A stretch of DNA of 64,000 bases from an uncultured Verrucomicrobiae bacterium (lineage in GTDB: Bacteria; Verrucomicrobiota; Verrucomicrobiia; Chthoniobacterales; UBA10450), in the NCBI GenBank assembly GCA_963742295.1, contig CAVULI010000007.1, forward strand, positions 213,372 through 277,371, in the 5' to 3' direction. How positions within the stretch are numbered: position 1 is the first letter of the stretch; each line of letters starts with the position of its first letter. Of this stretch, positions 1-64,000 are shown piece after piece. The notes below the pieces were generated by a model, which saw only the letters and a program-made list of their open reading frames with translations, had not been told where the DNA came from and made no database searches. The position numbers and the translations under genes were made by a program.

Positions 1-579
1 CCCGCGGCTGATGCGCAATTGCAGTCGGGCGATGTGATCAAGAAATTCGACGGGCACGAGGTGCGTTCGTTTCCGGAATTGCGCAGCCTGGTGGCGCAAA
101 CGGAGTTGAACAAAAAGATCAATTTGGAAATCACGCGCAATGGCAAGCCCATGACGCTTTCGACTGCGATCAAGGAACAGCCGGCCAATTATTTGAGCGC
201 GCGCGCTAATCCGCAGCAACCTAGCCAGCCGGCGCCGCAACAGCCGCAACAGCCGCGACCGCCGCAGCAGCAACAGCCGGACGAGGATGATTTGCAGGAC
301 CAGGCGCCGCTAGCCGGGGTGGACGTGCAGACACTTACGCCGGAACTGGCGCAATCGCTCGATGTGCCGAGCGGCGTGCGCGGCGTCGTCGTCACGAAAG
401 TGGACGATCCATCCGGCGAATTGCGCAAGGGCGATGTGATCGAGGAGGTCAATCAACAGCCGGTCACGAACGTGGATGAATATCGCAAGGTGGTCGGCTC
501 GCTCGATCCGGAGGGAACGCATGTCCTTTCCGTTTGCCGCAAACGCACGCGTTCGTTTGTGGTCCTTCGCGCTCGTTAG
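1..579 (+). CDS. HtrA/DegP-family serine protease, C-terminal PDZ region (5' end cut by window edge)
   Basis: The frame is open from base 1. Two PDZ-like segments (QSGDVIKKFDGHEVRSFPELR..., KGDVIEEVNQQPVTNVDEYRKV) are separated by a Pro/Gln-rich linker. The TAG stop lies inside a CTCGTTAGG motif copy. Confidence 0.7.
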   Translation, partial: PAADAQLQSGDVIKKFDGHEVRSFPELRSLVAQTELNKKINLEITRNGKPMTLSTAIKEQPANYLSARANPQQPSQPAPQQPQQPRPPQQQQPDEDDLQDQAPLAGVDVQTLTPELAQSLDVPSGVRGVVVTKVDDPSGELRKGDVIEEVNQQPVTNVDEYRKVVGSLDPEGTHVLSVCRKRTRSFVVLRAR

Positions 580-656
580 GATTTTTCCTGCGTTTCGAAT
601 TACCTTCGCGGGTGAATAACCGATCGTCGTGATCGGTCTAACTCCGAAACAAAATC

Positions 657-2198
657 ATGAAACGGATCACTCTTGGCTTGGCAGTCGTGGCTCTGGTTTT
701 CGGCGCGGCACCGCGCGCGAAAGCTCAAACAGAAGTCTCGATCAATTTCTTTTACGACAATCTCGCCAACGAAGGCGACTGGATTGAAGTGGGCGATTAC
801 GGCTACTGCTGGCAGCCGCGCATCGCCGTGAGTGACCACAGTTGGCGACCGTATGCCGATGGTTACTGGGCTTACACCGATGTCGGCTGGACTTGGGTTT
901 CCTACGAAGATTTCGGCTGGGCCACCTATCATTACGGACGCTGGGCGCGACTGCGCGATCGCGGTTGGATTTGGGTTCCGGGAACGGAATGGGGACCAGC
1001 GTGGGTTTCGTGGCGCACCGGCGGTGACTACGTTGGCTGGGCGCCGCTGCCGCCGCGTTACGGAGGCGGTGAGCCTATTTACGAAGGCCGGCCGGTTAGC
1101 AGTAACGTCGACATCGAGTTCGATATCGGACCGGAATATTACAACTTTGTCGATGTGCGTTACATCGGTGAACCGGTTCTGCGTCGTCGCATCTTCAATC
1201 CGATTCAGAACATCACCTGCATCAATTACACGGTGAATGTGACCAACATTACCTACAACAACTCGGTCGTTTACAATTACGGTCCTGATTACTCCCGCTT
1301 GAGCGCGTATTCCACGCGGCGGATTCCGCGCCTGCAATTGCAACGCGAATCGAATGTCGATTTGAACGCGGCGGTAAGAAACAGGCAGCTCACCAAGGTG
1401 CAAGGCAACCAGCTCTTGGTCGCGTCGCCGATGAAGATGGAGAAGCCAGCGCAAATCATTGCTCCCAAAGTGGTGAAGACGAAGATCGATAAACCAAATA
1501 TCGTGACCGGCTGGAGCGGTGTGAACGATCCGAAGAAGAAAGCGGATTTGCAGGCGAAGTTTAAGGCGGAAGACGCCACGTCAATTCCGGAGCCGAAAGT
1601 GAAGCCGGTTCATCTGGAAGACTTGAAGAATGCAGGCGGCGTATCGCCGGCCGCGACCGCGGCTCCTGAGGAAAACACGCCGTTGCAATCCGGCACGCCG
1701 GTTCGCAACTTTCCAGACAGGAAGAGACAAAGGGACGATTTGTCGATGCCGCTCAACACAGCGTCACCTACGCCTTCGGTTTTGCCTAACGAGAGGAAGA
1801 ACAAGATCAGCGAATTACGCGGCGTCAAACCCTCCTCGAGCCCGGTGTCTCAGGTCAATCCTGTGCCGGAAAGCACGATTGTGCCTAACGAGAACAAGAA
1901 CAAAGACCTCCGAAAAAGCCGGACGATGCAGCAATTGTTAAGCACGCCCGCGCCAACCGCTACTCCGGCCGGAGCAGTCGGAGAAACGAAAATGACTCCG
2001 CACAATTTGCGGCCGCAGCGGCCGGTCTATGCACCGGGCGATGGCGAACTTCGCACCACAAATAAGTTGAAGAGTGAAGGAGCGGCTGCCGCCGGTGGCG
2101 CGCAAAACGTGCAGCAATCCGGGCGAGCAGCAGCTAAGGCAGCACAAACAACAGTTGCAACAGCAGGGCCAGAGAATGCAGCAGGTGGCACCGAATAA
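657..2198 (+). CDS. Secreted protein with a Trp/Gly/Tyr-rich N-terminal domain (possibly DUF6600-like) and a long low-complexity Pro/Lys/Ala tail
   Basis: Signal peptide MKRITLGLAVVALVFGAAPRAKAQ. Repeated GW-x-WV / GYW motifs (YGYCWQPR...GYWAYTDVGWTWVSYEDFGWATYHYGRW...GWIWVPG). The family name is from memory only. Confidence 0.5.
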   Translation: MKRITLGLAVVALVFGAAPRAKAQTEVSINFFYDNLANEGDWIEVGDYGYCWQPRIAVSDHSWRPYADGYWAYTDVGWTWVSYEDFGWATYHYGRWARLRDRGWIWVPGTEWGPAWVSWRTGGDYVGWAPLPPRYGGGEPIYEGRPVSSNVDIEFDIGPEYYNFVDVRYIGEPVLRRRIFNPIQNITCINYTVNVTNITYNNSVVYNYGPDYSRLSAYSTRRIPRLQLQRESNVDLNAAVRNRQLTKVQGNQLLVASPMKMEKPAQIIAPKVVKTKIDKPNIVTGWSGVNDPKKKADLQAKFKAEDATSIPEPKVKPVHLEDLKNAGGVSPAATAAPEENTPLQSGTPVRNFPDRKRQRDDLSMPLNTASPTPSVLPNERKNKISELRGVKPSSSPVSQVNPVPESTIVPNENKNKDLRKSRTMQQLLSTPAPTATPAGAVGETKMTPHNLRPQRPVYAPGDGELRTTNKLKSEGAAAAGGAQNVQQSGRAAAKAAQTTVATAGPENAAGGTE

Positions 2199-2304
2199 TG
2201 CGGCGGGTGGTCAGCCTAACGAGTCGTCGCAAGGCGGTGGAAAGAAGGACAAGGGCAACCGAGGGAAACCAACGCCGACACCGGCGCCGAACCAGTAAAG
2301 GAAT

Positions 2305-5672: not shown

Positions 5673-7336
5673 GCGGGAAGCGAACCATACGCGCCCCGCG
5701 CGGGGCGCAGCTGAGCTGCAAGGGCTGGCACCAGGAAGCCGCGTTGCGCATGCTCATGAACAACCTCGATCCCGAGGTGGCGGAGAATCCCGACAAGCTG
5801 ATCGTTTACGGCGGAACGGGACGGGCCGCGCGCAGTTGGGAAGCGTTCGATGCCATCGTGCATTCTCTGCGCGCTCTGAAAAACGACGAGACGCTGCTCG
5901 TGCAATCCGGAAAACCGGTCGGAAAATTTCGCACGCACGACGAAGCGCCGCGCGTTCTGATCGCGAATTCAAACCTCGTCGGGCAATGGTCGAACTACCC
6001 GGAGTTCAATCGTCTCGAACAACTTGGTCTGACCATGTACGGCCAGATGACGGCCGGTTCGTGGATTTACATCGGCAGCCAGGGGATCGTGCAGGGAACG
6101 TTCGAGACGTTCAGCGCCGCCGGGCAAAAACATTTCGGCGGCTCGCTCGAAGGCAAACTTGTCGTTAGCGGCGGCCTCGGCGGCATGGGCGGCGCGCAAC
6201 CGCTTGCGGCTACGATGGCCGGCGCTGTTTTTCTCGGAGTGGACGTCGATCCGGCGCGCATCGAAAAACGCCTAACGAGTGGTTATTGCGACAAGATGGT
6301 GTCGTCGCTCGATGAAGCGATGAAGTTGATCGATGCCGCGCGCGAAAAAGGCGAGGCGATTTCCATCGGGCTGGTGGGCAATTGCGCCGATGTCCTGCCG
6401 GAAATGTTGCAGCGCGGAATCGTGCCCGATGTTTTGACCGATCAGACCAGCGCGCATGACGCGCTTAACGGTTACGTCCCGCACGGAATGAATTTGCAGG
6501 AGGCCCTGCAGTTGCGCGTGGCCAAGCCGGACGAATACGTCGCATGCTCGATGCGTTCCATGGCCGTGCACGTGCAAGCCATGCTCGATCTGCAAAAGAA
6601 AGGCGCGATCACGTTCGATTACGGCAACAACATCCGCACCCAGGCGAAGAAAGCCGGCGTGGAAAACGCCTTCGACATTCCGGGCTTCGTGCCGGAATAC
6701 ATTCGCCCGCTTTTTTGCGAGGGGAAAGGGCCGTTTCGCTGGGTGGCGTTGAGCGGCGAAGCCGATGACATCGCGCGCACTGATCGCCTTGCGCTCGAAA
6801 TGTTTCCCGACAACGCGATTCTCGATCGCTGGATGAAACTGGCGCAGAAGCGCATCCAATTCCAAGGACTGCCCGCGCGCATCTGCTGGTTAGGCTACGG
6901 CGAGCGCGCCGAGTTCGGCGTGGCCATGAATGAACTCGTTAGGCGTGGCGAGGTGAAGGCGCCGATTGTCATCGGACGCGATCATCTCGATACCGGTTCG
7001 GTCGCGTCGCCTTATCGCGAAACGGAAGGAATGCTCGACGGCAGCGACGCGATTTCCGATTGGGCGTTGCTCAATGCGCTGGTTAACACCGCCGCGGGCG
7101 CGTCGTGGATTTCCATTCACAACGGCGGCGGTGTTGGCATCGGCTATTCGCAACACGCCGGTATGGTCGTGGTGGCGGATGGAACTGATAATTCCAAGCG
7201 CCGGTTGGAACGCGTCCTAACGAGTGATCCGGGCATGGGTGTTTTGCGCCATGCCGACGCGGGTTATTCGCGCGCGATCAAGTTTGCCCGCGAACACGAC
7301 ATCGATATTCCAATCGAACCGCAGGCGCGCGACTAA
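5669..7336 (+). CDS. hutU: Urocanate hydratase
   Basis: 555 aa. Contains [13 protein letters not shown] and the C-terminal [19 protein letters not shown] block typical of HutU. Confidence 0.95.
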
Positions 7337-7343: not shown

Positions 7344-9030
7344 ATGCAAAAGATCATCGAATGCGTGCCGAATTTTTCCGAGGGTCGCGACCTGGAAGTG
7401 ATTCGCCAGATCACGGCCGCGATTGAATCAGTCGATGGAATTTCGCTGCTTGAATGTCGATCCGGGCGCCAGCACCAATCGCACGGTCGTAACTTTTGCC
7501 GGCGACCCGAAGGCAGCGGTGGAAGCGGCGTTTCGCGGAATTCAAAAAGCGGCCGAACTGATCGACATGCGCAAACATTCGGGCGCGCATCCGCGCATGG
7601 GTGCGACCGACGTTTGTCCTTTCATTCCGATCAGCAATGTGAGCTGGGACGAAGCGATCGACTGCGCGAAGCAATTGGGACAACGCGTCGGCGCGGAGTT
7701 GAAGATTCCCGTTTATCTTTACGAAAGAGCGGCGACCAATCCGGCGCGGTCCAATCTCTCCATCATTCGCGCGGGCGAGTACGAGGGTTTCTCGAAAAAG
7801 ATCAAACAACCGGAATGGAAACCGGATTTTGGGCCTAACGAGTTCAACGAAAAGTCCGGCGCTACCGTTATCGGCGCGCGTGAATTTCTCGTCGCTTATA
7901 ACGTGAACCTGAATACGAAAGCGGTGCGTCGTGCCAATTCTGTCGCGTTTGATATCAGGGAAAACGGTCGCGTGAAAACGGACGACGGCACGCCGACGGG
8001 CAAGCCGGTTCTTGATGAAAAGGGCGAGCCGGTGCGCGTGCCCGGAATGTTGAAGCACGTGAAAGCGATTGGCTGGTTCGTCGAGGAATACGGCATGGCG
8101 CAGGTCTCGATCAATCTGACCAATATCGATGAAACGCCGTTGCATGCCGCGTTCGACGCATGCTGCGAATCGGCGAGTAAACGTGGGTTGCGTGTGACCG
8201 GTTCGGAAATCGTCGGGATGGTGCCGAAGAAATGTCTGCTTGAAGCTGGCCGACATTTTTTGCGCAAACAGAAGTGGTCGGAAGGCGCGGCGGAAGAGGA
8301 ACTGGTCGATGTTGCAGTTCGCTCGTTAGGCTTGAATGAGCTAAAGCCGTTCGATCCGAAGGAAAGGATTATTGAATTCAAAATGGAATCGGCCGCGAAG
8401 AAATCGCTCGTGAAAATGAACCTGCGCCAGTTCTGCAACGAAACCCTGAGCGATTCGCCCGCGCCGGGTGGCGGGTCGGTCGCGGCCCTGATGGGCGCGC
8501 TTGGCGTCTCGTTAGGCGGAATGGTGGCGAATCTCTCCGCGGGCAAACGCGGCTGGGACGACAAGATCGGCTTCTTCAGTGACTGGGCAGTGAAGGCGCA
8601 GCAACTGAAGGACGAATTGCTTTTCCTGGTGGATGAAGACACCGCGGCCTTCAACAAAGTGATGGAGGCATTCGCGCTTCCGAAAAATTCAGACGCCGAA
8701 AAATCTGCGCGCTCCGCTGCTATTCAATCGGCTAACAAATATGCGGCGGAAATTCCGTTGCGCGTCATGGAGACGACGGCCAAAGCCTACGCGTTGCTCG
8801 GGGATATGGCGGAGAAAGGGAATCCCGCTTCGATTTCAGATGTGGGCGTCGGTTTGCTCGCGGTGCGTGCTTGTATCGAAGGCGCGGGCATGAACGTCCG
8901 GATCAACCTGGCCGGACTGAAAGATGAAAAATTGAAAACAGATTTGCGGGCACGGCTCGCCAGGGTCCGCGCCGAGTCGGAAGCAGAATTCGCGAAGATA
9001 ACCCAAACCGTTGAAGGCAAGCTCGGGTAA
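7344..9030 (+). CDS. ftcD: Bifunctional glutamate formimidoyltransferase / formimidoyl-THF cyclodeaminase; reading frame interrupted near 7450
   Basis: The canonical N-terminus MQKIIECVPNFSEGRDLEVIRQITAAIESVDGISLL is in frame 0 from ATG 7344. The continuation NVDPGASTNRTVVTFAGDP... through the cyclodeaminase domain (SPAPGGGSVAALMGALG) is in frame +1, which is the ORF-track entry 7423..9030. Confidence 0.85.
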
Positions 9031-9045: not shown

Positions 9046-9960
9046 TTGATGCGGGAAGATCCAAATTGGCCGCGCGCCTCACAATGGCTGGCGGCGAGCG
9101 CGAAGAAGGGCGGCCACGGCGCGGCCCTCGCCGTTCTTGGTGTGCCAATGAATTGCTCCGGCACATCGGGTCAGTGCGAGCTGGCGCCGGTGGCGATCCG
9201 CGAAGCTCTCTCCAATTACAGCCTGCATGACGGCGAGATCGGCATCGATCTTGGCCAGTTAAGCGTGCGCGATTTCGGAGATGTCGCTCTGGTGGGAAAT
9301 TCGATGGAGAAAAATTTCTTCCGCTGCGTCGAAACGATGCGCCGCGCGCATGTCGGGCAGAGCACGATTCTGCTCGGCGGCGACAACAGCATCACGCGGC
9401 CGGGTGTGCACTCGTTAGGCTTTCCGCTCCATCGCTGTGGTTTGCTCACCTTCGATGCGCATCATGATTTGCGTGATCTCGAACAGGGCCTAACGAATGG
9501 TAATCCTGTCCGTGCTTTGCTGCGCGATGGCCTTCCGGGATCGAATATTTTCCAGGTCGGCATTCAGCCGTTCACGAATTCCGCCGTTTACGCGGGCGTG
9601 GCCCACGACGCTGGCATCAATGTCGTGACGGTTGATCAGGTTTACGCACAGGGAATTGACGTTGTCGTGCGCGATGCGCTCGGGACGCTGAGCCGACAGA
9701 CGGATGCCATTTATGTGGACCTCGATGTCGATGTGCTTGATCGCGCTTTTGCGCCCGCGTGTTCGGGTGCGCGACCGGGCGGACTGCAGCCGTGGATGGT
9801 GCGGCAGGCGGCGCGGATTTGCGGGCAGCACGACAAAGTCCTGATCATGGACATCGTCGAAGTCGATCCGACCAAGGACATCGCGGACGTCACGAAAATG
9901 GCGGCTGCGTCGTTCCTGCTCGCGTTTGCCGCCGGCGTGGGGCAATGCACGCTGAAGTGA
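9046..9960 (+). CDS. hutG: Arginase-fold ureohydrolase, probable formimidoylglutamase
   Basis: 304 aa. Family motifs [10 protein letters not shown] (Asn where His is usual), DAHHDLRD and VDLDVDVLD. Sits between ftcD and hutI. Confidence 0.7.
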
Positions 9961-18082: not shown

Positions 18083-18127
18083 CCACTCGTTAGGCCACGC
18101 CTGCATCGCTATGCGAAGCATTGCGGG

Positions 18128-22229: not shown

Positions 22230-22232
22230 CGA

Positions 22233-25989: not shown

Positions 25990-26013
25990 TTTGCCTAACG
26001 ACTGGTTGCGCGG

Positions 26014-27745: not shown

Positions 27746-27768
27746 AAGGCGCGGACGTTAATGCAATT

Positions 27769-38893: not shown

Positions 38894-38899
38894 CGAATC

Positions 38900-49709: not shown

Positions 49710-49717
49710 GACAAGCT

Positions 49718-49924
49718 ATGAAGGCGATGGAGTTCAAGTTTGAGTTTCACGACGGTCAGCTAACCAATCGCTACTCTTTCGATCCGCAGTCGGACGCGTG
49801 GACATCGACAATCCGGCAGAACGACAAAGGCGAGTGGAAGCTTTTCTGCGAAGGCAAGTTCACCCGCGCCAAGGAAAGTAAGAACCAGGGGATGAAAGAA
49901 GAGAGCAATCCTAGCTCTCGTTAG
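49718..49924 (+). CDS. Small hypothetical protein (68 aa)
   Basis: ATG 49718 encodes MKAMEFKFEFHDGQL.... The TAG stop lies inside a motif copy that forms the left arm of the 49917-49975 hairpin. Confidence 0.35.
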   Translation: MKAMEFKFEFHDGQLTNRYSFDPQSDAWTSTIRQNDKGEWKLFCEGKFTRAKESKNQGMKEESNPSSR

Positions 49925-49975
49925 GCATAAGCAGGTCTGAGCGCGAGGCAGAGGCGAGTCTCTCTGCCTAACGAG
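49917..49975. terminator. Hairpin formed by an inverted pair of the abundant motif (CTCGTTAGGCA ... TGCCTAACGAG); no T-tract
   Basis: Perfect 11-bp arms at 49917-49927 and 49965-49975, between two convergent genes (49718..49924 on + and 50009..51364 on -). Confidence 0.5.
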
Positions 49976-50008
49976 TAGTTACGTTGCCAAGCTTGCGCCG
50001 GTCAATCG

Positions 50009-54500: not shown

Positions 54501-55895
54501 TGTTATAACCGCCGAGCGATGTTCAGGTTCCCGAAAGTCTCGCTCGCCTGCGGCCGTGGCCAGGCCTCGATAGACGAAAGCACCATCGCGCAGCAGGATC
54601 TCCGCATCGTCGCGGATGCGGTTGTTGTTCTGCGCCGCCGCAATCGTCGGTGTGTCGCCGCCCGCGGCGAAAGCGAGGTTGTTATCGATAATGAATTGCG
54701 AACCCGCGACCGCCTGGATCGACGCCGCCCCGCCCAGGGAGCCGTTCGCGCCAAAGAGGGTCAAATTACTACCATTCGGGGCGCCCAGACCCCGATCCCC
54801 TACCAGCCTGACCAGGCTGGTGGCGTTCGTCCCCGAGATGAAATTGTTTCCCCCATTGAGGGTGGTGGTACCGGTGTAGGTATTGTTCCCGTGCATGGCG
54901 AAGCCATCCGGATTCCCCATGATGCCATTCTCCGTCAGGCCAAAGGTCTTGAGGAGCGAACCGTTGGAAAGAACGCCGTTCAATTGGAGCGCACGCCCCT
55001 GGCTCATGAAGGTGCCATTTATGGCGGTGCGGATAACCTGAGTGCCACCGCCCAGATCCAGATTACTCCCGATGCTGTTGCTTTGGAAGTTTCCGTTGTT
55101 GACGCCCATGACGGTGATGTCGCCCGTGACATGCAGCGAGCCGGTGCCGAAGACGCCGGCTCCGCCCACACCCGTCACTGGATTAAATCCCGCCGTATTG
55201 TTTGCCTGATTGACGAAGGTTAGCGCCGCGATCGTGATGTTGTTGTTGCCCAAATCGAAGAGGCCGTTCGAAACCCCGAGGCGCGTCGTCGCCGGCAGCA
55301 CGCTGGTGTTCATGATCTGGATGGTGCCGCCGAAAATGGGGTTGAAGCTAAAGTCGCTCCCGCCGCCAACGATGAGGTCGGCCCGAAGCACACCGCGAGC
55401 ATCGATGCCGAGGCCATTGCCGCTGAAATTCATCGGGCCGGCGAGTTGCAGTGTGCCCGCGCCAAGTTTGATGATGCCTAACGAGCCGTTGATCCCCGCG
55501 TTGATCGTGGCGGTGGCGCCCGGGGCCACGCTGATTAAACCCTGGCCGAGGGTGCTCGTGCCGGCCACAAAGGTGAGAGTATTCGCGCCCGATCCGTTCA
55601 GGGTGTAGCCGTCCACGGTAAAGTTCAGGCTGCTCACGTTGATTGGTGTCGTTAGGCTGATCGCGCCCACGCCCTTTGTACCGAAGATCGCGCCATCGCC
55701 ATTCGCGTTGTTCCACGCGCCGATGTCCCAATTCATATCGGTCGTGTTCCAGAGGAAGGTGCCGTCATCGTTGTTCCAGGTGACATCGGCGGCGCGGAGC
55801 GGGCTATGCATCGCGCCGGCTAAAAAGATTGTGGCCGCGAGCGCGAAAACGGCGCGGCGCGGAAAGGTCTGAAGCGGGGTGAATATTTGTTTCAT
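51513..55895 (-). CDS. Giant (about 1450 aa) PEP-CTERM adhesin-like protein of autotransporter-associated beta-strand repeats, broken into at least 3 ORFs by at least 5 frame disruptions
   Basis: The signal peptide is at 55895 (MKQIFT...AGAMHSPLRA) and the PEP-CTERM tail at 51513 (VPEPQTYALLVLGGVLLVVLPRIRRRRA). Repeat continuity across the breaks at about 53033, 54185, 54268, 54514 and 54543 is only restored by changing frame. Confidence 0.7.
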
Positions 55896-56072: not shown

Positions 56073-59000
56073 GTGAAGAAGTCCGTACGTACCCAAGCTG
56101 GATTCTTTAGAATCCGCCTTGTTCTCGCTCTCTTGCTTTGTTGCTGCGGCGCCTTTCTCGCCCTCGTCGCGGCCCCGGTTTCCAGTCAGGATAAGCAAGG
56201 CGGCGGGCCGGTGGTGATCAGGGCATCCGGCTTCAGCGAATCCATGGCGGTGCGCGATCTCCCGCCAGCGGTAGCCGGTAGCAAATCCGCGCGCAGAGAA
56301 GAAGAGGAAGAAAACGAGATCAACCCGCAAAATCGCGAACTCATCCGTCACGTTGATCCCAACGCCCCCAGGACGAGCGACGCCGCCCTTTCCTCAAAGC
56401 AAACGCTGCAACGCCCCAATGCGGTCACACCTCGTGCCCTGCCGACGCCGTCCGTGAGCTTCGAGGGGATGTCCTCTGCCGACACGGTCGCCCTCGGCCA
56501 GGGCTATCTGCCGCCGGATACCAATGGTGCGGTCGGGCCGACCCAATACGTGCAGACGGTCAACGTCACTTTCCGTGTTTGGGACAAGGCGGGAAATCCC
56601 CTAACGAACACGGCTACTATGGGCAGCCTTTTCGCAACGTTGGGCACCCCTTGTGCGAATACGAACGATGGCGACCCCGTCGTGTTCTACGACCAATTGG
56701 CTGACCGCTGGATCATCAGTGAGTTCTGCATCAGCGTGGCCAATCCGAACATGCATGAGATCATCGCCGTCTCGAAAACCGGCGACGCAACGGGCGCATA
56801 TTATCTTTACGATTTCATGATGCCCAACAGCGACTTTAACGATTACCCGCATTTTGGCCTCTGGGGCGATGCCTACTACATGACGGACAACCAGTTCCAA
56901 GGAAACACCTACCTGAACGTAGGCGTGTTCGCTTTCGATCGCGCCAAAATGCTGGCCGGTGATCCGACCGCGAGCTTCGTTTACTTCGATACCCATGTCT
57001 TGTTCCCGCCCGGGACCGGCATCAATGGCAATGGCACGGGCGGCATGCTCCCGGCCAGCGTCGATGGATTCGTCGCACCACCCGTCGGCGCGCCCTGTCC
57101 CTTCGTTTACTTCCAGGCAAATGAATTCGAAGACCCCGGCGACCAGTTGCGCATTTTCGATTTCCACACCGATTTCACAACTCCGGCAAACTCCACCTTC
57201 ACCGAGCGCGTCGGTAGTCCGCTTCCCGTGGCCGCCTTTGATCCTGTCACTGTCCCGGATGCGCGCAACGCCATCCCCCAACCCCCCCCGGCTACCAGCA
57301 GCACCTATCTCGACGCGATTCAGGATCGCATTATGTTCCGCCTCGCCTACCGAAACTTCGGCAGCAGTGAGGCGCTCGTCCTCAATCACACGGTTAACGC
57401 GGCAACCAACCCGGCCTACCGCGCCGCGGTTCGCTGGTATGAACTCACGCGCGCCACACCGAGCAGTGCCTTCACCGTTGCGGAGCAGCAGACTTTCGAC
57501 GGGACCGCGGCCAATACGGACAATCGTTGGATGGGCAGCATCGCCATGAATTTCCAAGGCGACATTGCCCTGGGCTACAGCGTCTCCAGCACGAGCGTTT
57601 TTCCGTCCATCCGTTATGCCGCCAAACTCGGCACCGATCCTGCCGGCAGTGGACTGGCCCAGGGCGAACAGACAATCGTGGCCGGCGGCGGCTCGCAAAC
57701 GAGCAATAGCAGCCGCTGGGGCGACTACAGTGACATGACCGTCGATCCTTCCGACGATTGTACTTTTTGGTACACGCAGGAATATTATTCTGCCACGAGC
57801 GGCGGAAGCTGGCGCACGCGCATCGCGAAATTCACTCCCGGCACGCAAGCCGTTTCCCCGCGCGGTACCATTTCCGGCACGATTACGAACTGCTCCTCTG
57901 GCCAGCCGCTCCCGAATGCCGTGGTCACAGTTTCTGGCGGATTCACCCGAACGACCGCGGTCGATGGCACCTTCAGCATGACGGTTGCCCCCGGGACCTA
58001 CAGCGCCACCATCACAGCGCCGGGAGCGACGCCCGTGACGCAAAACAATATCGTCGTCACGGACGGCAACACTGCGACCGTGAATGCCTGTCTCACTGGT
58101 CCGCCGATCGTGTCGGCCGACGACCGCGCCCATCACGGCTGATTCGTGTAACACGAACGGAGTCATCGACCCTAACGAGACGGTCACGGTCAATTTCGGC
58201 ATCAAGAATACCGGGCTAGTCAGCACCACCAATCTCGTGGCCACGCTGCAGACCTCGGGCGGCGTCACGAACCCGAGTGGTCCGCAGACCTACGGAGCGA
58301 TCGCCTCCGGCGGCGGCACCGCCGTGAAATCCTTCACCTTCACCGCCGGGGGTGTAACGTGCGGTTCGGTTGTCACCGCCACACTCCAACTCCAGGATGG
58401 CGCGACCAATTTCGGAACCATCACCTACAACTTCCAAATCGGCACCCAGACCGTCGCGTTGAGCGAGAGTTTCGATGCTGTGAGCGCACCGGCTCTGCCC
58501 AGCGGCTGGACCGCGACGAACGTGGTCGGTGGTCCGCCGCTCTGGGCCACATCGACTACCGTACCTGACACTGCGCCTAACGAGGTGTCCGTTGCTGATC
58601 CCCCGACTGTATCCGACAAGGTTCTCACCACCCCTTCGATTAACATCACCTCCACCGCCGCCCAGGTGACTTTCCGTCATGAGTACGACTTCGAGAACTC
58701 GTATGACGGCGGTGTTCTCGAGGTCTCCTCTCCGAATATCAACGGCGGCATGTTCACAGACATTACAAACCCGGGAGTCGGCGGCAGCTTCGTGGACGGC
58801 GGATACAATTCCACTATCAGTCCTTTGTACGATAATCCGTTAGCCGGACGACCGGCCTGGTCCGGGACGTTGTTCGGATATTCAACGGTCACGGCCAATC
58901 TCGGCCCGAATGTGGCAGGACACGCCATCAAGCTGCGGTTCCGCCTCGGCTCCGATACCGGCACCAGCGGCGGCGGTTGGCGGATTGACGGCGTGAAAGT

Positions 59001-60672
59001 TTCAAACGGCTATCAGTGTTGCGGCCTTCTCATGACGGCGAGCGGACCGGCCGTGTTAACCGCGGAAGGATTCGCTCCCGCCGATGGAGCGCCTGATCCG
59101 GGTGAACCGGTCACGGTTAACCTGCCTCTGTCGAACGTGGGAACCGTGAATAGCAGCAATCTCGTCGCAACGTTGCAGGCTACCGGCGGCGTCACTTCAC
59201 CGAGCGCGCCGCAGAACTACGGCGCCGTGGTCGCGGCCGGCCCCAGTGTCAGCCGATCGTTCACGTTTACCGCCGCGGGCAATTGCGGCGATAACATTAC
59301 CCTGACCCTCGCCTTGCAGGATGGTGCCACGAATCTTGGCACGGCGACGTTCACCATGAGATTGGGAACGCGCAACACGCTCTTCAGTGAAGCGTTTGAC
59401 GGCGTTAGTGCCCCGGCCTTACCGGCCGGTTGGACCACCGCCGTCTCCGGCGCTGAATCGGCCTGGGTCACGTCAATCACCACACCAAGCAATGCGCCTA
59501 ACGACGCATTCGCCCCTGACGCGACCAATATCGGCAATACAGAATTAATCACACCGACTATCGCAGTCCCCGCTGGCGGTGGACAACTCACCTTTAGGAA
59601 CCTGTTCAATATGGAAGGCGATGCCACCAGCGGCTATGACGGCATGGTGTTGGAAATCAGCATCAACGGCGGGGCCTTCGCTGACATAACGAACGGTGGC
59701 AACGCCTTCACCACCGGCGGCTACACCCGCACCATCGCGTCAATATACGGCAGCCCAATTGCCGGCCGCCCGGCCTGGAGCGGCCTTTCCGGCGGGACGA
59801 CAGCCGCGCCGGCTTACATCACCTCTACGATTAATCTTCCGGCCGCCGCGGCAGGACAGAACATCAAGTTGAAATGGCGCGCCGCCACCGACAACAGCGC
59901 CGCCGCCGCCGGCGCCGCCGGAGTCCGCATCGACGATATCAAGATCACGGGTGTAGCGAATGTGTGTATTGGCACGCAGGCGCCGGCGATCACAAATGGG
60001 CCTCCTCCGTCACTCGCCGTTGTGGGAACGCCTTATAACTTCGCCTTCACCGCGACAGGAAACCCTGCGCCGACGTTCAGCCTGAAAGACGGCACGCTGC
60101 CGCCGGGCCTCAACCTCTCGTCCGCCGGTGTTCTCTCCGGCAATACTTCAGGCGGCACTGGCAGTTATCCGAACATCACCGTGGCCGCGACCAACGGCAT
60201 CATGCCGGACGTTAGCCAGACGTTCAGCATGACGACGGCGACAACCTCGGGGAACTACCTTGCATCGTTCGGCCTAACCGGTGGCAATGCCGCGCTGCTC
60301 TTTGATTACGACGGCGACGGTATCGCCAACCTGCTCGAGTATGCCCTCGGTCTGAATCCGACCATAAACAGCCAAAGCGGTCTGCCGGTCGTGACGTTGA
60401 AAGATTACAGCGGCACAAAATATCTCTCGATGACCTTCAACCGCTCATCGCTCGCCACCGATCTGACCTACAACGTCCAGGTCTCGGGCGATCTCGGTTC
60501 ATGGACCACGGTCGGCTCGAGCACGGGAGGTGGCGTCACCACCGGTCTCGGCTTCGTCGGTGAAATCGGTGGAATCCCTGCAGGTGCAAGCTTCTCCGTC
60601 GAAGTCCGCGACATCGTTCCCTTCAATCCGGACGTGAAGCGCTTCATCCGCCTCCAAGTCACCACGCCGTAA
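56073..60672 (+). CDS. Large (about 1530 aa) secreted multidomain protein; reading frame interrupted at about 58118
   Basis: GTG start with a signal-like MKKSVRTQAGFFRIRLVLALLLCCCGAFLALVAAP. Domains in order: N-terminal propeller-like domain (SSRWGDYSDMTVDP), a CarboxypepD_reg-like domain, two tandem modules of about 300 aa, a putative Ig domain, and a DYDGDGIANLLEYALGLNP C-terminal module. The track splits it into 56073..58142 and 58084..60672. Confidence 0.7.
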
Positions 60673-61598: not shown

Positions 61599-61748
61599 TT
61601 TTGTCTGTGAGGAGACACCGTTAAATCGTGCCGGAGAAATTCCCAAAAGTACCTAACGAGAAGAAGACCTCGGTGGCGGACGAATCGCGGATGTCCTGCG
61701 CACAAGTGTCGCGTTGCCGGGCGATTTCGCTATAGTGCCGGGAGTCGT

Positions 61749-63206
61749 ATGAAGTTAGCTCGCAGTCTAATTCTTGCCGTGGCGCTTTCCCTCCTTGCCT
61801 TTGCCGCCGCGGACGCGAGCACGCTCCGCATTGTATCCTATAACGTCGATAGCTTCGATGAAGGGAGCGACAACAACATCATCGGCCCGACCTACAGCAT
61901 TCCGACCGTGATTCAGGCGATCGGGCTGCATCATCTGGGCAGTAATGCGCAGCCCGTGGATGTGCTGGGTGTGGAGGAACTTCTTGCGACCACGCTTTCG
62001 AACCTAACGAATCAGCTCAATGCCATTTATGGCGCAGGCACCTATGCTTTCGACACTACCAAAGGTAAGACTACGGGTGGCGGGGCGGACGGACTTATCT
62101 ACAACACGCATACCGTGCAGGTCGTATCGGCACGGGCGCTGCCCACCGGGCAGACCGTGCTTCTCCAGCCGGATGGTACCTATACCGCGGCCTATTCTGC
62201 CGGCGGCGGGATGAACGGCGCCACGCGTGGGCCCTTGGTCTATCAACTGCGGCCGGTCGGCTATGGGGCGAGTGAAGATTTCTACCTTTACGTCGATCAC
62301 GCGCGCAGCTCGACCGATAACTCGTTAGGCGACGCGCGCTATGCCGAGGCGCAGGAAGTCCGCAGCGACGCGAAGTATAACCTGCCCGCGGGCGCACATA
62401 TCATTTACTCTGGCGATTGGAACCTCTTTAGCGGAAGCAACGAGAACGCCTATAAGTGTCTTACCGGCCAGGTTACTTCCGATGGGATCGACTGGAGCGA
62501 TGGCAGCGTCATCTGGGCGAATGCCAACCAGACACAGGTCTACGATCCGGTGTCCAAGACTGCGCCCGCGACTACGTCTACTTGGCGAAATGTTACTGCC
62601 GATCACGCCCTGTATCTGTATAACAGTTCTACTACCTCACTCGCGTCGCGTCTCGATGTCCAACTGGTGAACGCGCCCATGCTTGCTGCTTACAACAAGC
62701 AAGGCGGGGTGCAATTAGCTTCCGATACCTCCGATCCTTACGATAGCTCGAACTTTCCCTCTTCCCAGTATCCCTATGCCTTCGAGACCTTCGGTAACAA
62801 TGGCTCAACTGCGCGTAGCCGGGCCGCTACCGACTCCGCTAACCATTCTTTGGATGACCTGGCCAATACCACACCTAATGCCGCTACCGTCTATGCTGCC
62901 CTGAAGCAAACCGGTAGCGGAGAAACGTCTACCGGAAGCGACCATTATCCGGTCGTCGGAGATTACGTTGTTGTGCCAACTCCGGTTGTCCTGACAGCAC
63001 AAGGCCTGGGGACAAACGGATCCTTCCAGCTCAAGCTAACCTCGACGCCGAACAGCGGTTTTGAAATACAAGCTTCGACCGACTTGAGTAGCTGGAACAA
63101 CCTGGGCCCGGGCTACACCGACGCAAACGGCTTGCTGATTTTTCAGGATACAAACGCCGGTGCTTTTACCCGCCGCTTCTATCGCGCGATCTGGCCCTTG
63201 CCGTAA
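61749..63206 (+). CDS. Secreted endonuclease/exonuclease/phosphatase (EEP) family protein with a C-terminal beta-sandwich module
   Basis: Signal peptide, then LRIVSYNV...GSDHYPVVGDY, and the C-terminus GFEIQASTDLSSWNNLG...RRFYRAIWPLP. Confidence 0.7.
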   Translation: MKLARSLILAVALSLLAFAAADASTLRIVSYNVDSFDEGSDNNIIGPTYSIPTVIQAIGLHHLGSNAQPVDVLGVEELLATTLSNLTNQLNAIYGAGTYAFDTTKGKTTGGGADGLIYNTHTVQVVSARALPTGQTVLLQPDGTYTAAYSAGGGMNGATRGPLVYQLRPVGYGASEDFYLYVDHARSSTDNSLGDARYAEAQEVRSDAKYNLPAGAHIIYSGDWNLFSGSNENAYKCLTGQVTSDGIDWSDGSVIWANANQTQVYDPVSKTAPATTSTWRNVTADHALYLYNSSTTSLASRLDVQLVNAPMLAAYNKQGGVQLASDTSDPYDSSNFPSSQYPYAFETFGNNGSTARSRAATDSANHSLDDLANTTPNAATVYAALKQTGSGETSTGSDHYPVVGDYVVVPTPVVLTAQGLGTNGSFQLKLTSTPNSGFEIQASTDLSSWNNLGPGYTDANGLLIFQDTNAGAFTRRFYRAIWPLP

Positions 63207-63395
63207 GCAGAGAGCTACTTCAAACTTCCAAAAGCGGTTGCAGTCTCGAAAGTAAGCGAAGCCGGGCTTTCAAAGGAACCTTATTTCTTCCCTCCTGATT
63301 TCTGGTTTTATGGCTTTGAAATTTCCCTTATTCATCTTTCTGCGGGTGAGACACCCGCCTCTACACACGAGAAAACGGATAGAAACAAAGATCAT

Positions 63396-64000
63396 ATGAG
63401 CGATTTTCTCTCTGAATTCCTTCCGCCGGAGTGGGCGGTGTGCCTTTCGATCGCGGCCTTGCTGCTCCTGCTCGCAGAAGCGGGATTTCGGTCTGGCTTC
63501 CGACTTTACGCGAAGAAGGATGATTCACATACAAGACAGATCGCCGGCATCCAGGGCGCAGTCCTCGCCCTGCTCGGATTGCTGCTCGGCTTCACCATGG
63601 CGATGGCGGTGAACCGCTATGACACGCGCCGGAACCTTATCGTGAAGGAAGCCAACGCCATCAACACCACCTACCTCCGGGCCTCACTTCTGTCCGAGCC
63701 GCATCAGATGCCGATCCGCGACCTGCTGCGCCGATATGTCGATATCCGGGTCAAGTATGCGGCCCTCGCGGTTGACCCAGCCAAGCTCGCCGAGGGACTA
63801 CGCGCCAGCGCGGAGATCGAAGGCGAACTCTGGAATCACGCCGTCGCCGCAGCGAAAGAAGCACCCAATAACATTACCGGTACGTTTATCACGTCGGTCA
63901 ACGAATTGATCGCCACCGACGCCGAACGTCTCGCGGCCGGGCGGGCCTACATTCCTGGTGGCGTCTGGCTGTTGCTAATCATTGTGGCCGGGTTCGGTTG
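63396..64000 (+). CDS. DUF4239-like membrane protein (3' end cut by window edge)
   Basis: ATG 63396. The frame stays open to the window end: MSDFLSEFLPPEWAVCLSIAALLLLLAEAGF...LLGFTMAMAVNRYDTRRNLIVKEANAINTTYLRA. It is absent from the ORF track because no stop is reached. Confidence 0.55.
   Translation, partial: MSDFLSEFLPPEWAVCLSIAALLLLLAEAGFRSGFRLYAKKDDSHTRQIAGIQGAVLALLGLLLGFTMAMAVNRYDTRRNLIVKEANAINTTYLRASLLSEPHQMPIRDLLRRYVDIRVKYAALAVDPAKLAEGLRASAEIEGELWNHAVAAAKEAPNNITGTFITSVNELIATDAERLAAGRAYIPGGVWLLLIIVAGFG

What the first reader, a model, noticed from the sequence alone, without database searches (positions are those of the whole stretch)
1..64000. Hyper-abundant 11-mer GCCTAACGAGT (core CCTAACGA) at about 1 per kb on both strands: an uptake-sequence-like genomic word with no function known to me
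Reading the sequence by eye, I find 58 exact copies of the 8-mer core. Thirty-five are CCTAACGA on the + strand, starting at 1785, 1884, 2215, 6271, 7216, 7834, 9489, 12543, 14955, 15749, 17951, 20975, 22225, 22429, 22883, 23801, 25994, 26742, 27914, 28688, 38252, 38889, 39319, 45258, 47645, 49305, 49967, 51647, 55487, 56610, 58171, 58576, 59507, 61652 and 62003. Twenty-three are TCGTTAGG, starting at 573, 6936, 8323, 8509, 9412, 10245, 10851, 18087, 19392, 19539, 20763, 30119, 31337, 31887, 34911, 35700, 44387, 46611, 47996, 48407, 49918, 55649 and 62332. A composition-only estimate at about 60% GC predicts roughly 1-2 copies for both strands combined. The flanks are also biased: G precedes most copies and G-T follow, which extends the consensus to GCCTAACGAGT. 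At least 15 one-mismatch relatives (CCTAACAA, GCTAACGA, CTCGTTAGA, CCTAACGG) are also present. The copies are stand-alone words, not parts of a longer dispersed repeat. They occur in both orientations relative to the strand and to the coding direction, inside conserved housekeeping genes, and at gene ends. Length, density, orientation-independence and intragenic location match the statistical profile of the Neisseria DUS and Pasteurellaceae USS uptake sequences, which are also about one per kb. The word is not palindromic and shows no clear strand polarity here (35:23), which argues against a Type II restriction site or a KOPS/Chi-type polar signal.
Basis: partly seen in the sequence, partly recalled or inferred. 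Interest (0 to 1): 0.85.

Follow-up and report, generated by a model that had tools for sequence, protein, structure and literature searches.

The report
Hyper-abundant genomic word in soil Verrucomicrobia
A 9-11 base word, GCCTAACGA(GT), is written about once per kilobase into the genes of an uncultured soil bacterium (Chthoniobacterales) and some of its relatives; it behaves like the 'uptake sequences' that a few pathogens use to recognise their own DNA, which nothing I found reports outside two proteobacterial families.

Summary
CCTAACGA occurs 58 times (35 on +, 23 on -) against about 1 expected, and 22 copies are the exact 11-mer GCCTAACGAGT. Codon-aware nulls give 0.7-1.8 copies where called genes hold 45.

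The word acts at the DNA level:
- It sits in all four stop-free reading frames on both strands.
- It supplies stop codons.
- It forces rare codons (CCT, CTA, TTA).
- It replaces amino acids in conserved enzymes.
- It is not part of a longer repeat or a hairpin.
- It shows no strand polarity.
- It is enriched about 4-fold at gene 3' ends.

The window comes from soil Chthoniobacterales (Verrucomicrobiota). The word is the top outlier in several related MAG lineages and has decayed in others. A sister clade carries a different word, AAGATCGACAT.

Word copies persist at orthologous sites 3 times better than control 8-mers, but only between word-rich genomes.

The best explanation is a DUS/USS-like uptake sequence kept up by biased transformation (confidence about 0.45). 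Uptake, a receptor and methylation could not be tested. Rivals are a HIP1-like repair or methylation drive, or a non-polar protein-binding signal. I found no prior report.

The parts
573..580 (-). word copy TCCTAACGAGC; its TAG is the stop codon of the HtrA-like PDZ protease gene
1785..1792 (+). GCCTAACGAGA in the DUF6600 gene, coding strand, read P-N-E
1884..1891 (+). GCCTAACGAGA in the DUF6600 gene, coding strand, read P-N-E
2215..2222 (+). exact GCCTAACGAGT, 17 nt after the DUF6600 stop codon, between convergent genes
6271..6278 (+). exact 11-mer in hutU, coding strand, read L-T-S; relatives have K or Q where T stands
6936..6943 (-). exact 11-mer in hutU, template strand, read L-V-R; relatives have L-V-K
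7216..7223 (+). TCCTAACGAGT in hutU, coding strand, read L-T-S (a synonymous change only)
7834..7841 (+). exact 11-mer in the FTCD gene, read P-N-E; relatives have P-A-V; the same change is seen in L022
8323..8330 (-). GCCTAACGAGC in FTCD, template strand, read S-L-G; relatives have S-M-G
8509..8516 (-). GCCTAACGAGA in FTCD, template strand, read S-L-G; an old site shared with 15 other genomes
9412..9419 (-). exact 11-mer in the hutG-like gene, template strand, read S-L-G
9489..9496 (+). GCCTAACGAAT in the hutG-like gene, coding strand, read L-T
10245..10252 (-). GCCTAACGAGC in hutI, template strand, read S-L-G; relatives have A-R-G
10851..10858 (-). exact 11-mer in hutI, template strand, read S-L-G
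12543..12550 (+). GCCTAACGAAT in tig, read P-N-E immediately before the stop codon
14955..14962 (+). ACCTAACGAGA in cinA, read P-N-E
15749..15756 (+). GCCTAACGACG in cinA, read L-T-T, 44 nt before the stop codon
17951..17958 (+). GCCTAACGAGA in the FKBP isomerase gene, read P-N-E
18087..18094 (-). exact 11-mer, 5 nt after the FKBP stop codon, between convergent genes
19392..19399 (-). exact 11-mer in the GH3 glycosidase gene, template strand, read L-V-R
19539..19546 (-). GCCTAACGACT in the GH3 glycosidase gene, template strand, read V-V-R
20763..20770 (-). exact 11-mer in the astacin-like peptidase gene, template strand, read S-L-G
20975..20982 (+). exact 11-mer in the astacin-like peptidase gene, coding strand, read L-T-S
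22225..22232 (+). exact 11-mer; its TAA is the stop codon of the GT4 glycosyltransferase gene
22419..22426 (+). exact 11-mer in the unknown 497-aa gene, read P-N-E
22883..22890 (+). exact 11-mer in the unknown 497-aa gene, read L-T-S
23801..23808 (+). GCCTAACGAGA in the Mur ligase gene, template strand, read L-V-R
25994..26001 (+). GCCTAACGACT, 5 nt after the Zn-ribbon gene stop codon, between convergent genes
26742..26749 (+). GCCTAACGAGA in ychF, template strand, read S-L-G
27914..27921 (+). GCCTAACGAAA in the P-type ATPase gene, template strand, read S-L-G
28688..28695 (+). exact 11-mer in the P-type ATPase gene, template strand, read S-L-G
30119..30126 (-). exact 11-mer in the P-type ATPase gene, coding strand, read P-N-E
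31337..31344 (-). exact 11-mer in the deacetylase gene, coding strand, read L-T-S
31887..31894 (-). exact 11-mer in dcp, coding strand, read L-T-S, 44 nt before the stop codon
34911..34918 (-). ACCTAACGACT in a stretch with no called gene (34054-35567)
35700..35707 (-). ACCTAACGAGT in the unknown 409-aa gene, template strand, read S-L-G
38252..38259 (+). GCCTAACGAGA in the 2-oxoacid oxidoreductase alpha gene, read P-N-E
38889..38896 (+). GCCTAACGAAT; its TAA is the stop codon of the oxidoreductase alpha gene
39319..39326 (+). GCCTAACGACC in the oxidoreductase beta gene, read L-T-T
44377..44384 (-). GCCTAACGAGA in the unknown 404-aa gene, coding strand, read L-T-R
45258..45265 (+). exact 11-mer in the unknown 404-aa gene, template strand, read S-L-G
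46611..46618 (-). ACCTAACGAAT in the ketoacyl synthase gene, template strand, read S-L-G, 46 nt before the stop codon
47645..47652 (+). exact 11-mer in the TPR protein gene, read P-N-E
47996..48003 (-). GCCTAACGAGA in the TPR protein gene, template strand, read S-L-G
48407..48414 (-). GCCTAACGAGC in the TPR protein gene, template strand, read S-L-G
49305..49312 (+). GCCTAACGAAT in a stretch with no called gene (48917-50008)
49918..49925 (-). GCCTAACGAGA, intergenic; inverted partner of the copy at 49967, 49 nt away, with no strong hairpin
49967..49974 (+). exact 11-mer, intergenic, 35 nt beyond the 3' end of the gene 50009-51364(-)
51637..51644 (+). exact 11-mer in the PATR-repeat protein gene, template strand, read S-L-G
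55477..55484 (+). GCCTAACGAGC in the unknown 468-aa gene, template strand, read S-L-G
55649..55656 (-). GCCTAACGACA in the unknown 468-aa gene, coding strand, read L-T-T
56600..56607 (+). CCCTAACGAAC in the CarboxypepD_reg protein gene, read L-T-N
58171..58178 (+). CCCTAACGAGA in the M36-like 862-aa gene, read P-N-E
58576..58583 (+). GCCTAACGAGG in the M36-like gene, read P-N-E
59497..59504 (+). GCCTAACGACG in the M36-like gene, read P-N-D
61652..61659 (+). ACCTAACGAGA, intergenic between the genes 60831-61598 and 61749-63206
62003..62010 (+). ACCTAACGAAT in the unknown 485-aa gene, read L-T-N
62322..62329 (-). exact 11-mer in the unknown 485-aa gene, template strand, read S-L-G

Best explanation
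GCCTAACGA is a lineage-specific DNA-level tag. In this lineage it extends to GCCTAACGAGT, with an AT-rich patch 2-6 nt upstream. The tag is spread and held in place by a sequence-biased process acting on the DNA itself, not by the needs of the genes it lies in.

The most likely process is the one known for the Neisseria DUS and the Pasteurellaceae USS. A competence (DNA-uptake) machinery binds fragments carrying the word and takes them up preferentially. Homologous recombination then puts them into the chromosome. Point mutations that create the word are thereby over-transmitted, and mutations that destroy it are under-transmitted (molecular drive). The word piles up wherever proteins tolerate it, and conspecific DNA becomes recognisable.

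Shown here:
- the hyper-abundance;
- its independence from coding, composition and repeats;
- the absence of polarity;
- the bias towards gene 3' ends;
- the distortion of codons and amino acids;
- preservation at orthologous sites in word-rich lineages only;
- turnover by single-base changes;
- a different word in the sister clade.

Inferred, not shown:
- that the biased process is DNA uptake;
- that a receptor exists;
- that these bacteria are transformable.
For: Abundance.
- 58 copies against about 1 expected.
- 45 copies in called genes against 1.8 (synonymous shuffle) and 0.7 (codon-order shuffle).
- It is the only outlier among all 8-mers in the window.

DNA-level behaviour.
- The word is present in all four stop-free frames: P-N-E 13, L-T 13, S-L-G 17, L-V-R 4. 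It provides three stop codons.
- 13 of 14 PN[ED] tripeptides and 16 of 19 SLG tripeptides are spelled with the word, although CCT is 11% of Pro codons and CTA and TTA are about 4% each of Leu codons.
- Amino acids are replaced in hutU, FTCD, hutI and cinA relative to all word-poor relatives.

Motif shape.
- A sharp core, a weaker 3' GT..G(T/A) extension seen in every frame class, and an upstream AT patch (0.59 against 0.41, p=2e-9).

Orientation and position.
- 35:23 in the window, and 19 sense to 16 antisense among independent orthologous sites.
- 15 of 46 gene 3' ends have a copy within 50 nt against 4.0 expected. Gene 5' ends are not enriched. USS and DUS share a bias to gene termini (PMC2346458).

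Phylogenetic pattern.
- The same word is the top outlier in L009, L011, L014, L016, L029, L032, L040 and L241 at 0.6-1.2 per kb.
- The flanks differ between lineages.
- The sister clade has AAGATCGACAT instead, 102 copies against 16.7 expected.

Conservation.
- Words are retained at orthologous sites in 54% of cases against 18% for control 8-mers between word-rich genomes.
- Retention from rich to poor genomes is 7.8% against 10.5%.
- Within the L040 clade retention is 73-100% against 26-30%.
- Against the nearest relative L241 it is 9 of 13 against 21%.
- Gains and losses are single-base changes (CCTGACGA, CCTAATGA, TCGTTGGG).

Precedent. DUS and USS are 9-12 nt, number in the thousands per genome and come in dialects (bioRxiv 10.1101/2025.10.24.684340). 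Temperate phages of USS hosts pick up USS (PMC6776037). Here one phage-like contig carries four copies.
Against: - No uptake, binding or transformation data exist for any Chthoniobacterales, as far as my literature searches found.
- Only 64 kb of this genome was available, and it holds no competence, pilus or pilin gene apart from the ubiquitous cinA. The presence of the machinery is therefore unknown.
- Copies near gene ends do not form hairpins or terminator-type inverted pairs. [quoted passage not shown]
- Spacing is random rather than even (CV 0.95).
- Word sites are not significantly less conserved than the rest of their proteins (difference -0.05, p=0.18, n=22).
- Every sequence-level property found here is also shown by cyanobacterial HIP1, whose function is unknown and is probably not uptake (PMC4390886).
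- In the phage-like contig the four copies form a tight intergenic cluster. That looks more like a protein-binding site array than like drift under an uptake drive.
Confidence: 0.45

Rival explanations
1. HIP1-like word. The motif is created and maintained inside the cell by a sequence-specific DNA methyltransferase, a mismatch nuclease or another biased repair or gene-conversion activity. Alternatively it serves an unknown essential function tied to such a modification, as proposed for the cyanobacterial GCGATCGC.
For: - HIP1 shows the same hyper-abundance, intragenic location and lineage-specific loss (PMC4390886).
- The patchy presence and absence of the word among close relatives is what a gained-and-lost modification or repair gene would give.
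- The sister-clade word contains GATC.
- The phage-like contig carrying four copies also encodes a C5 DNA methyltransferase (PF00145, E=3.7e-53).
Against: - The word is asymmetric. HIP1 and the recognition sites of the methyltransferases linked to it are palindromes.
- No methyltransferase or Vsr-like gene lies in the 64 kb.
- An intracellular drive should load any resident DNA evenly, yet the one phage-like contig has a 230-bp cluster and nothing in the other 7.5 kb.
- I know of no repair bias that specifies 9-11 bases.
Confidence: 0.2
2. Cis-acting recognition site for a chromosomal protein. The word would be a self-marker read on the DNA molecule, for example a non-polar recombination or repair hotspot, a nuclease-attenuating signal of the Chi type without orientation bias, a defence-system 'self' tag or a nucleoid-organising site. 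It would be kept by selection on each copy or on overall density.
For: - Copies are conserved far above background only in genomes where the word is abundant, as expected if a lineage-specific reader protein exists.
- A phage-like contig has four copies in alternating orientation within 230 bp of an AT-rich intergenic region, next to an inverted repeat. This looks like a binding-site array, and a single cluster per molecule is enough for a Chi-like or self-tag function.
- Chi, uptake sequences and HIP1 are the three recognised classes of over-represented oligomers (PMC4390886).
Against: - Known Chi and KOPS sites are strongly co-oriented with replication. Here 35:23 rejects a 75% skew (p=0.01), and independent sites split 19:16.
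- From my own knowledge, Chi is only a few-fold over-represented, not about 60-fold.
- No known nucleoid or defence protein uses thousands of exact 9-11-mers inside coding sequence.
- Spacing is random.
Confidence: 0.2
3. By-product of codon usage, amino-acid composition or oligonucleotide bias, or fragments of a dispersed repeat or mobile element, or an assembly artefact.
For: - The word sits mostly in coding DNA.
- Four tripeptide classes account for most copies.
Against: - Dinucleotide, Markov, synonymous-codon and codon-order nulls all give 3 or fewer copies against 45-58 observed.
- The word uses the rarest Pro and Leu codons.
- Flanks are unrelated beyond about 14 nt, and no repeat family contains the copies.
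- The same word appears in independent MAGs from different studies and in many soil metagenome contigs.
Confidence: 0.02

Closest known systems
DNA uptake sequence (DUS) of Neisseriaceae, AT-GCCGTCTGAA and its dialects, read by the minor pilin ComP
   Same: - Asymmetric core of 10-12 nt with weaker flanks.
- About 1 copy per kb, on both strands.
- Found within genes as well as between them.
- Lineage-specific 'dialects'.
- Enriched at gene ends.
- Conserved in genomes that use it.
   Different: - Unrelated sequence and a different phylum.
- No terminator-forming inverted pairs here.
- About 80% of copies are intragenic, whereas from my own knowledge DUS are more often intergenic.
- The sister clade has an unrelated word rather than a 1-3 base dialect.
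- Uptake preference and a receptor are unknown.
Uptake signal sequence (USS) of Pasteurellaceae, AAGTGCGGT / ACAAGCGGT with AT-rich flanks
   Same: - 9-nt core plus an AT-rich flanking patch.
- Mostly intragenic, in every usable reading frame.
- Distorts codon and amino-acid choice (Findlay and Redfield, PMC2817400, listed).
- Biased to gene termini (PMC2346458).
- Accumulates in temperate phages (PMC6776037).
   Different: - Unrelated sequence.
- The AT patch is upstream and short.
- No preference for poorly conserved protein positions could be shown.
- Function is untested.
HIP1 (GCGATCGC) of cyanobacteria
   Same: - An octamer present at about one per kb.
- Found inside genes.
- Maintained by an unknown force.
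- Lost in some lineages.
- Its function is unresolved.
   Different: - HIP1 is a perfect palindrome tied to GATC and CGATCG methyltransferases.
- This word is asymmetric, and no methyltransferase link could be examined.
Chi (RecBCD/AddAB) and KOPS (FtsK) polar motifs
   Same: - Short, asymmetric, over-represented words read by a DNA-tracking machine.
- A few copies suffice on a phage or plasmid.
   Different: - Those motifs are strongly skewed to one replication strand and, from my own knowledge, only modestly over-represented.
- This word is not skewed and is about 60-fold over-represented.

Membership tests
DNA uptake sequences (DUS/USS) | Short word (9-12 nt) hyper-abundant relative to composition, hundreds to thousands of copies per genome (about 1 per kb) | tested here: met
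   58 copies in 64 kb against 0.93 expected. Density is 0.6-1.2 per kb in eight related loci.
DNA uptake sequences (DUS/USS) | Both orientations, no replication or transcription polarity | tested here: met
   35:23 in the window (p=0.15 against 50%). 26 copies on the coding strand and 21 on the template strand. 19:16 among independent orthologous sites.
DNA uptake sequences (DUS/USS) | Copies inside genes occupy the usable reading frames and distort codon and amino-acid usage | tested here: met
   All four stop-free frames are used. Rare codons are forced, and K/Q>T, K>R, M>L and AV>NE replacements are seen.
DNA uptake sequences (DUS/USS) | Lineage-specific, with variants (dialects) among relatives | tested here: met
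   The core GCCTAACGA is shared. The GT extension occurs only in the window and L241 lineage. A different word marks the sister clade, and several lineages have lost the word.
DNA uptake sequences (DUS/USS) | Closely spaced inverted pairs that form transcription terminators | tested here: not met
   Only two inverted pairs lie within 100 nt. Folding around the 15 gene-end copies gives z-scores from -2.2 to +1.5 and no shared hairpin.
DNA uptake sequences (DUS/USS) | Competent cells take up DNA with the word in preference to DNA without it | not testable with these tools
   This needs an uptake or transformation experiment. No cultured host is known to me.
DNA uptake sequences (DUS/USS) | The genome encodes a DNA-uptake apparatus and a word-specific receptor (ComP-type pilin or equivalent) | not tested
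   Only 64 kb of the genome was available, and it holds none apart from cinA. The source contig could not be retrieved.
HIP1-type iterated palindromes | Palindromic word | tested here: not met
   GCCTAACGAGT and its reverse complement ACTCGTTAGGC differ. This follows directly from the sequence.
HIP1-type iterated palindromes | Cognate orphan methyltransferases recognising the core | not testable with these tools
   No methylation data and no whole genome were available. There is no methyltransferase in the window.
Chi / KOPS polar motifs | Strong co-orientation with replication (75% or more on one strand) | tested here: not met
   35 of 58 rejects 75% (p=0.0098). The same mix of orientations is seen in + and - genes.
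REP / MITE-type dispersed repeats | Copies share a longer unit, usually with secondary structure, and lie between genes | tested here: not met
   Similarity falls to chance beyond about 14 nt. About 80% of copies are in frame inside genes.

The most novel reading that the evidence does not exclude
Chthoniobacterales are among the most abundant and least cultured soil bacteria. On this reading they carry genome-wide self-recognition words. There are at least two unrelated words, GCCTAACGA and AAGATCGACAT, in sister clades, possibly more, and the words have been lost repeatedly. They would be a third, independent invention of DNA uptake sequences and the first outside Proteobacteria. That would imply sequence-selective natural transformation in dominant soil Verrucomicrobiota, and would give a bioinformatic handle on who exchanges DNA with whom in soil.
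Probability: 0.4. Interest if true: 0.88.

Novelty: new member of a known kind. Interest (0 to 1): 0.76.

Why it matters
According to a 2025 survey, uptake sequences are known from only two proteobacterial families. Whether sequence-specific self-recognition in transformation exists elsewhere is an open question.

This word, and its counterpart in the Udaeobacter-like sister clade, have every sequence signature of such a system, in a phylum where I found no report of transformation. The pattern of repeated loss among close relatives would allow the responsible gene, whether a receptor or some other reader, to be found by phylogenetic profiling of existing MAGs.

The word is useful even if it is not an uptake signal:
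- It is a strong, easily scored marker for binning.
- It can help assign hosts to phages and mobile elements.
- It can help detect recent gene transfer in soil metagenomes.
- It is a second HIP1-type puzzle, with an asymmetric motif.

Tried and rejected
- Codon and composition artefact. Rejected by dinucleotide, Markov and two codon-aware shuffles.
- Longer dispersed repeat. Rejected: the repeat finder and flank logos show no similarity beyond about 14 nt.
- Terminator or hairpin role at gene ends. Rejected by folding.
- Even spacing. Not seen (CV 0.95).
- Polarity. Not seen.
- Preference for poorly conserved protein positions. Inconclusive.
- Recombination tract behind the identical GPNEFN word site in the window and L022. 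None found, since the flanks are as diverged as elsewhere.
- Literature search for the word itself, for uptake sequences or competence in Verrucomicrobia or Udaeobacter. Nothing relevant.
- Retrieving the source contig. A 100% identical FTCD protein sits on a 920-kb contig, but exact look-ups failed.
- Viral scans with three 14-15-mers. These gave chance single hits, except one contig.
- Extending that contig. Only 7.7 of 24 kb is stored.
- Metagenome scan.
- Annotation of the window's called genes. Of the 47 called genes, 46 were scanned against Pfam and/or NCBIfam, and none was a candidate reader or machinery gene.

Full report
**1. The observation**

CCTAACGA occurs exactly 58 times, 35 on the + strand and 23 on the - strand. 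Dinucleotide-preserving shuffles give 0.93 (maximum 4). The 11-mer GCCTAACGAGT occurs 22 times against 0.00 expected.

Among all 8-mers in the window, the only strong outliers are this word and its overlapping sub-words. The next unrelated 8-mer has z of about 6, against 34 for the word.

I called 47 genes with a simple codon-score caller. Annotation and synteny later added a hutG-like gene. Two codon-aware nulls were run on the 45 copies in called genes:
- Shuffling synonymous codons within each gene leaves 1.77 +/- 1.22 copies (maximum 6).
- Shuffling codon order leaves 0.70 +/- 0.85 copies.

**2. The word acts at the DNA level**

Copies lie in all four reading frames that contain no stop codon:

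| Strand of gene | Read as | Copies |
|---|---|---|
| coding | P-N-E/D | 13 |
| coding | L-T | 13 |
| template | S-L-G | 17 |
| template | L-V-R | 4 |

- Three further copies supply the stop codon of a gene (TAA at 22225 and 38889, TAG at 573).
- Eight copies lie outside called genes.
- The split between coding and template strand is 26:21.

The word is built from the rarest codons. CCT is 11% of Pro codons, and CTA and TTA are about 4% each of Leu codons. Even so, 13 of 14 PN[ED] tripeptides and 16 of 19 SLG tripeptides are spelled with it.

Codon alignments with relatives show synonymous take-overs at RVLTSD, LGLTMY and VSLGGM. They also show amino-acid replacements in conserved enzymes:
- hutU: KRL(K/Q)SG becomes KRLTSG.
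- hutU: ELVKRG becomes ELVRRG.
- FTCD: RSMGLS becomes RSLGLN.
- FTCD: GPAVFN becomes GPNEFN.
- hutI: RARGAS becomes RSLGRS.

**3. Anatomy of the motif**

- **Flanks.** G precedes 48 of 58 copies. The following bases are G (43), T (33), then S, G/C and T/A.
- **GT extension.** By my own tally of the flanks listed, roughly 30-50% of copies in every frame class and in non-coding copies carry the GT extension. It is therefore not a codon effect.
- **Upstream patch.** Positions -6 to -2 are AT-rich, 0.59 against 0.41 (p=2e-9).
- **Sharpness.** One-mismatch 8-mers number 41 against 31.7 expected. The excess lies in CCTGACGA, GCTAACGA and CCTAACAA.
- **No longer repeat.** Similarity between copies vanishes beyond about 14 nt.
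- **Spacing.** Spacing is random (CV 0.95).
- **Gene ends.** 15 of 46 gene 3' ends have a copy within 50 nt, against 4.0 expected (0 of 2000 randomisations reach this). Gene 5' ends are not enriched.
- **No hairpins.** The gene-end copies are not in hairpins.
- **No polarity.** 35:23 is compatible with 50% (p=0.15) and rejects a 75% skew (p=0.01).

**4. Whose genome it is, and who else has the word**

- **Organism.** A hutU-seeded scan of GTDB species representatives puts the window in Chthoniobacterales (Verrucomicrobiota), among soil MAGs. The best hit has 87% amino-acid identity.
- **Synteny.** The hut-tig-clpPX-cinA region is conserved across these loci.
- **Word-rich relatives.** The same 8-mer is the top outlier in L009, L011, L014, L016, L029, L032 and L040 at 0.6-1.2 per kb. 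Across these seven loci, genes hold 85 copies against 2.9 after a synonymous shuffle.
- **Intermediate relatives.** The word is weaker but still the top outlier in L001, L002, L010 and L031.
- **Word-poor relatives.** It is essentially absent from L003, L004, L008, L018, L022, L038 and others.
- **Tree.** A neighbour-joining tree of seven proteins shows the rich lineages interleaved with poor ones inside one clade (GC 0.57-0.62).
- **Fossil copies.** Poor genomes keep a few copies at exactly the oldest shared positions. The FTCD VSLGGM site, for example, is shared by 16 genomes. Absence is therefore secondary decay.
- **Nearest relative.** L241 has 88% FTCD identity and sits on a 700-kb ENA contig. 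It has 17 copies in 21.7 kb with the same GT dialect.
- **Lineage-specific flanks.** The L040 clade lacks the GT extension and prefers T at -4/-3.
- **Sister clade.** This clade has GC about 0.55 and includes MAGs named Ca. Udaeobacter. It lacks the word but has its own, AAGATCGACAT. That word is found on both strands and in five frames, with 102 copies against 16.7 after a synonymous shuffle.

**5. Evolutionary dynamics**

Four-fold degenerate sites are only 46-50% identical between the window and each of the other word-rich genomes, so any preservation of words is meaningful.

| Comparison | Words retained at orthologous position | Control 8-mers identical |
|---|---|---|
| word-rich to word-rich, pooled | 54% (228/425) | 18% |
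| word-rich to word-poor, pooled | 7.8% | 10.5% |
| within the L040/L009/L011/L014 clade | 73-100% | 26-30% |
| window to L241 | 9 of 13 | 21% |

The preserving force is therefore present only in genomes where the word is abundant. It is not a property of the proteins.

Differences between lineages are single-base changes, such as CCTAACGA versus CCTGACGA, CCTAATGA or TCGTTGGG. Each lineage also has private copies.

The same GGGCCTAACGAGTT replacement in FTCD appears in the window and in the otherwise word-free L022. No recombination tract surrounds it.

**6. Phages and metagenomes**

Three viral-collection scans with 14-15-mers gave 131 loci (1.1 Mb). Apart from the seeding hit, their word density is at chance level, 0.015 per kb.

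The exception is a phage-like contig, L322/L333. It has a PHROG hit, a C5 methyltransferase and a chorismate mutase. Four full GCCTAACGA copies in +,-,+,- order lie within 230 bp of an AT-rich intergenic region, and the remaining 7.5 kb has none.

It returned mostly chance hits plus about 14 short word-dense soil contigs with GC 0.53-0.65, mostly 0.55-0.62.

**7. What it most likely is**

Elhai lists three recognised classes of highly over-represented oligomers: Chi, uptake sequences and HIP1.

- **Chi/KOPS-type signals** are excluded by the lack of polarity and, from my own knowledge, by the scale of the enrichment.
- **Uptake sequences** fit on every sequence-level criterion I could test: length, asymmetry, density, both strands, all frames, proteome distortion, gene-end bias, dialects, conservation only in users, and presence in a phage. 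I therefore rank a DUS/USS-like uptake sequence driven by biased transformation first, at about 0.45.
- **Points against uptake** are that the terminator-forming pairs typical of DUS/USS are absent and that no competence gene could be examined.
- **HIP1-like drive.** HIP1 shares most of the statistics, and its function is unknown. A repair- or methylation-linked drive stays at about 0.2.
- **Non-polar binding or self-marker site.** This also stays at about 0.2. The tight phage cluster fits it best.

The remaining 0.15 or so is spread over two possibilities: about 0.02 for the artefact and codon-bias rival, and the rest for explanations I have not thought of.

**8. Novelty**

A 2025 survey states that uptake sequences are known only in Neisseriaceae and Pasteurellaceae. 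My searches found no report of this word, or of any uptake sequence or competence, in Verrucomicrobia.

One study infers that natural competence is common among abundant soil bacteria, from ComEC homologues and linkage decay (PMC7305173). That makes the hypothesis plausible but does not test it.

I file the word as a new member of the class of hyper-abundant lineage-specific genomic words. Membership in the uptake-sequence family proper is unproven, because the defining functional feature could not be tested.

**9. Limits**

- Only 64 kb of the genome and about 20-kb syntenic samples of relatives were available.
- My gene calls are approximate.
- The tree is a distance tree without support values.
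- Comparisons between loci share ancestry, so pooled counts are not independent. The 19:16 count of distinct sites avoids this problem.

Noticed in passing
L006, L007, L012, L013, L017, L020, L024, L048 (whole loci): The sister clade of Chthoniobacterales has GC about 0.55 and includes MAGs named Ca. Udaeobacter. It carries a different hyper-abundant word, AAGATCGACAT (core GATCGACA). The word lies on both strands and in five reading frames, with 102 copies in genes against 16.7 after a synonymous shuffle.
   Followed up: partly
L333 3683-3910 (= L322; contig IMGVR_UViG_3300010366_000067): A phage-like contig has four full GCCTAACGA copies in +,-,+,- order within 230 bp of an AT-rich intergenic region, next to the inverted repeat TGTTACgttcctGTAACA. 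The other 7.5 kb held has none. The contig also encodes a C5 DNA methyltransferase (5964-7118, -) and a type II chorismate mutase. The hexamer TAACGA occurs 20 times against 8.3 expected.
   Followed up: partly
L038, L022, L047 (whole loci): Relatives that lack the word show weaker dispersed candidate words of their own, on both strands. L038 has ATGTGCTC 8 times (0.5 expected), L022 has GAAGGCAC 9 times (1.1 expected), and L047 has GGTGTCGA 10 times (1.3 expected). The last two are borderline after multiple testing.
   Followed up: partly
window 11207-12554: The trigger factor gene (tig) is split between two reading frames near 11946. The L241 orthologue aligns with residues 1-247 in frame 2 and residues 247-443 in frame 3. 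This is either a real frameshift or an indel error of a long-read assembly.
   Followed up: partly
window 30191-30225, 30494-30528, 30627-30700: The 3' part of tRNA-Pro(GGG) (30499-30572, -) is repeated 300 bp away with 97% identity over 35 nt, overlapping the start of the P-type ATPase gene. A further degenerate tRNA-like piece lies at about 30627-30700. These may be scars of integration events or of a decayed tRNA duplication.
   Followed up: no
window 30790-30877: A long near-perfect palindrome built from AACGT/CCAACGT pentamer-like units (arms of 28-31 nt, 90-93% complementary) lies just beyond the start (5' end) of the deacetylase gene on the - strand, in the intergenic stretch between that gene and the tRNA-Pro. 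Another 26-nt hairpin (96% complementary) lies at 27768-27831, between ychF and the ATPase gene.
   Followed up: no
window 52050-52266: Four tandem 54-57-nt repeats (73-92% identical) lie inside the PATR-repeat, autotransporter-like gene. The region 51.6-55.5 kb has no word copy.
   Followed up: no
L022, FTCD gene (alignment column 414); window 7834: L022 has the word only once in 21.7 kb. That single copy is at the same place and with the same AV>NE replacement as the window copy at 7834, while all other relatives have GPAVFN. The flanks are not unusually similar, so the choice between convergence and an old relic is unresolved.
   Followed up: partly
L008 19817-19880; L019 5549-6211 and 15571: L008 has a tandem octamer array (ACGCTCCA, about 8 units). 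L019 has a dispersed element of about 20 nt, CCGCTGAGGACAGCG, partly in inverted pairs. Neither is related to the word.
   Followed up: no
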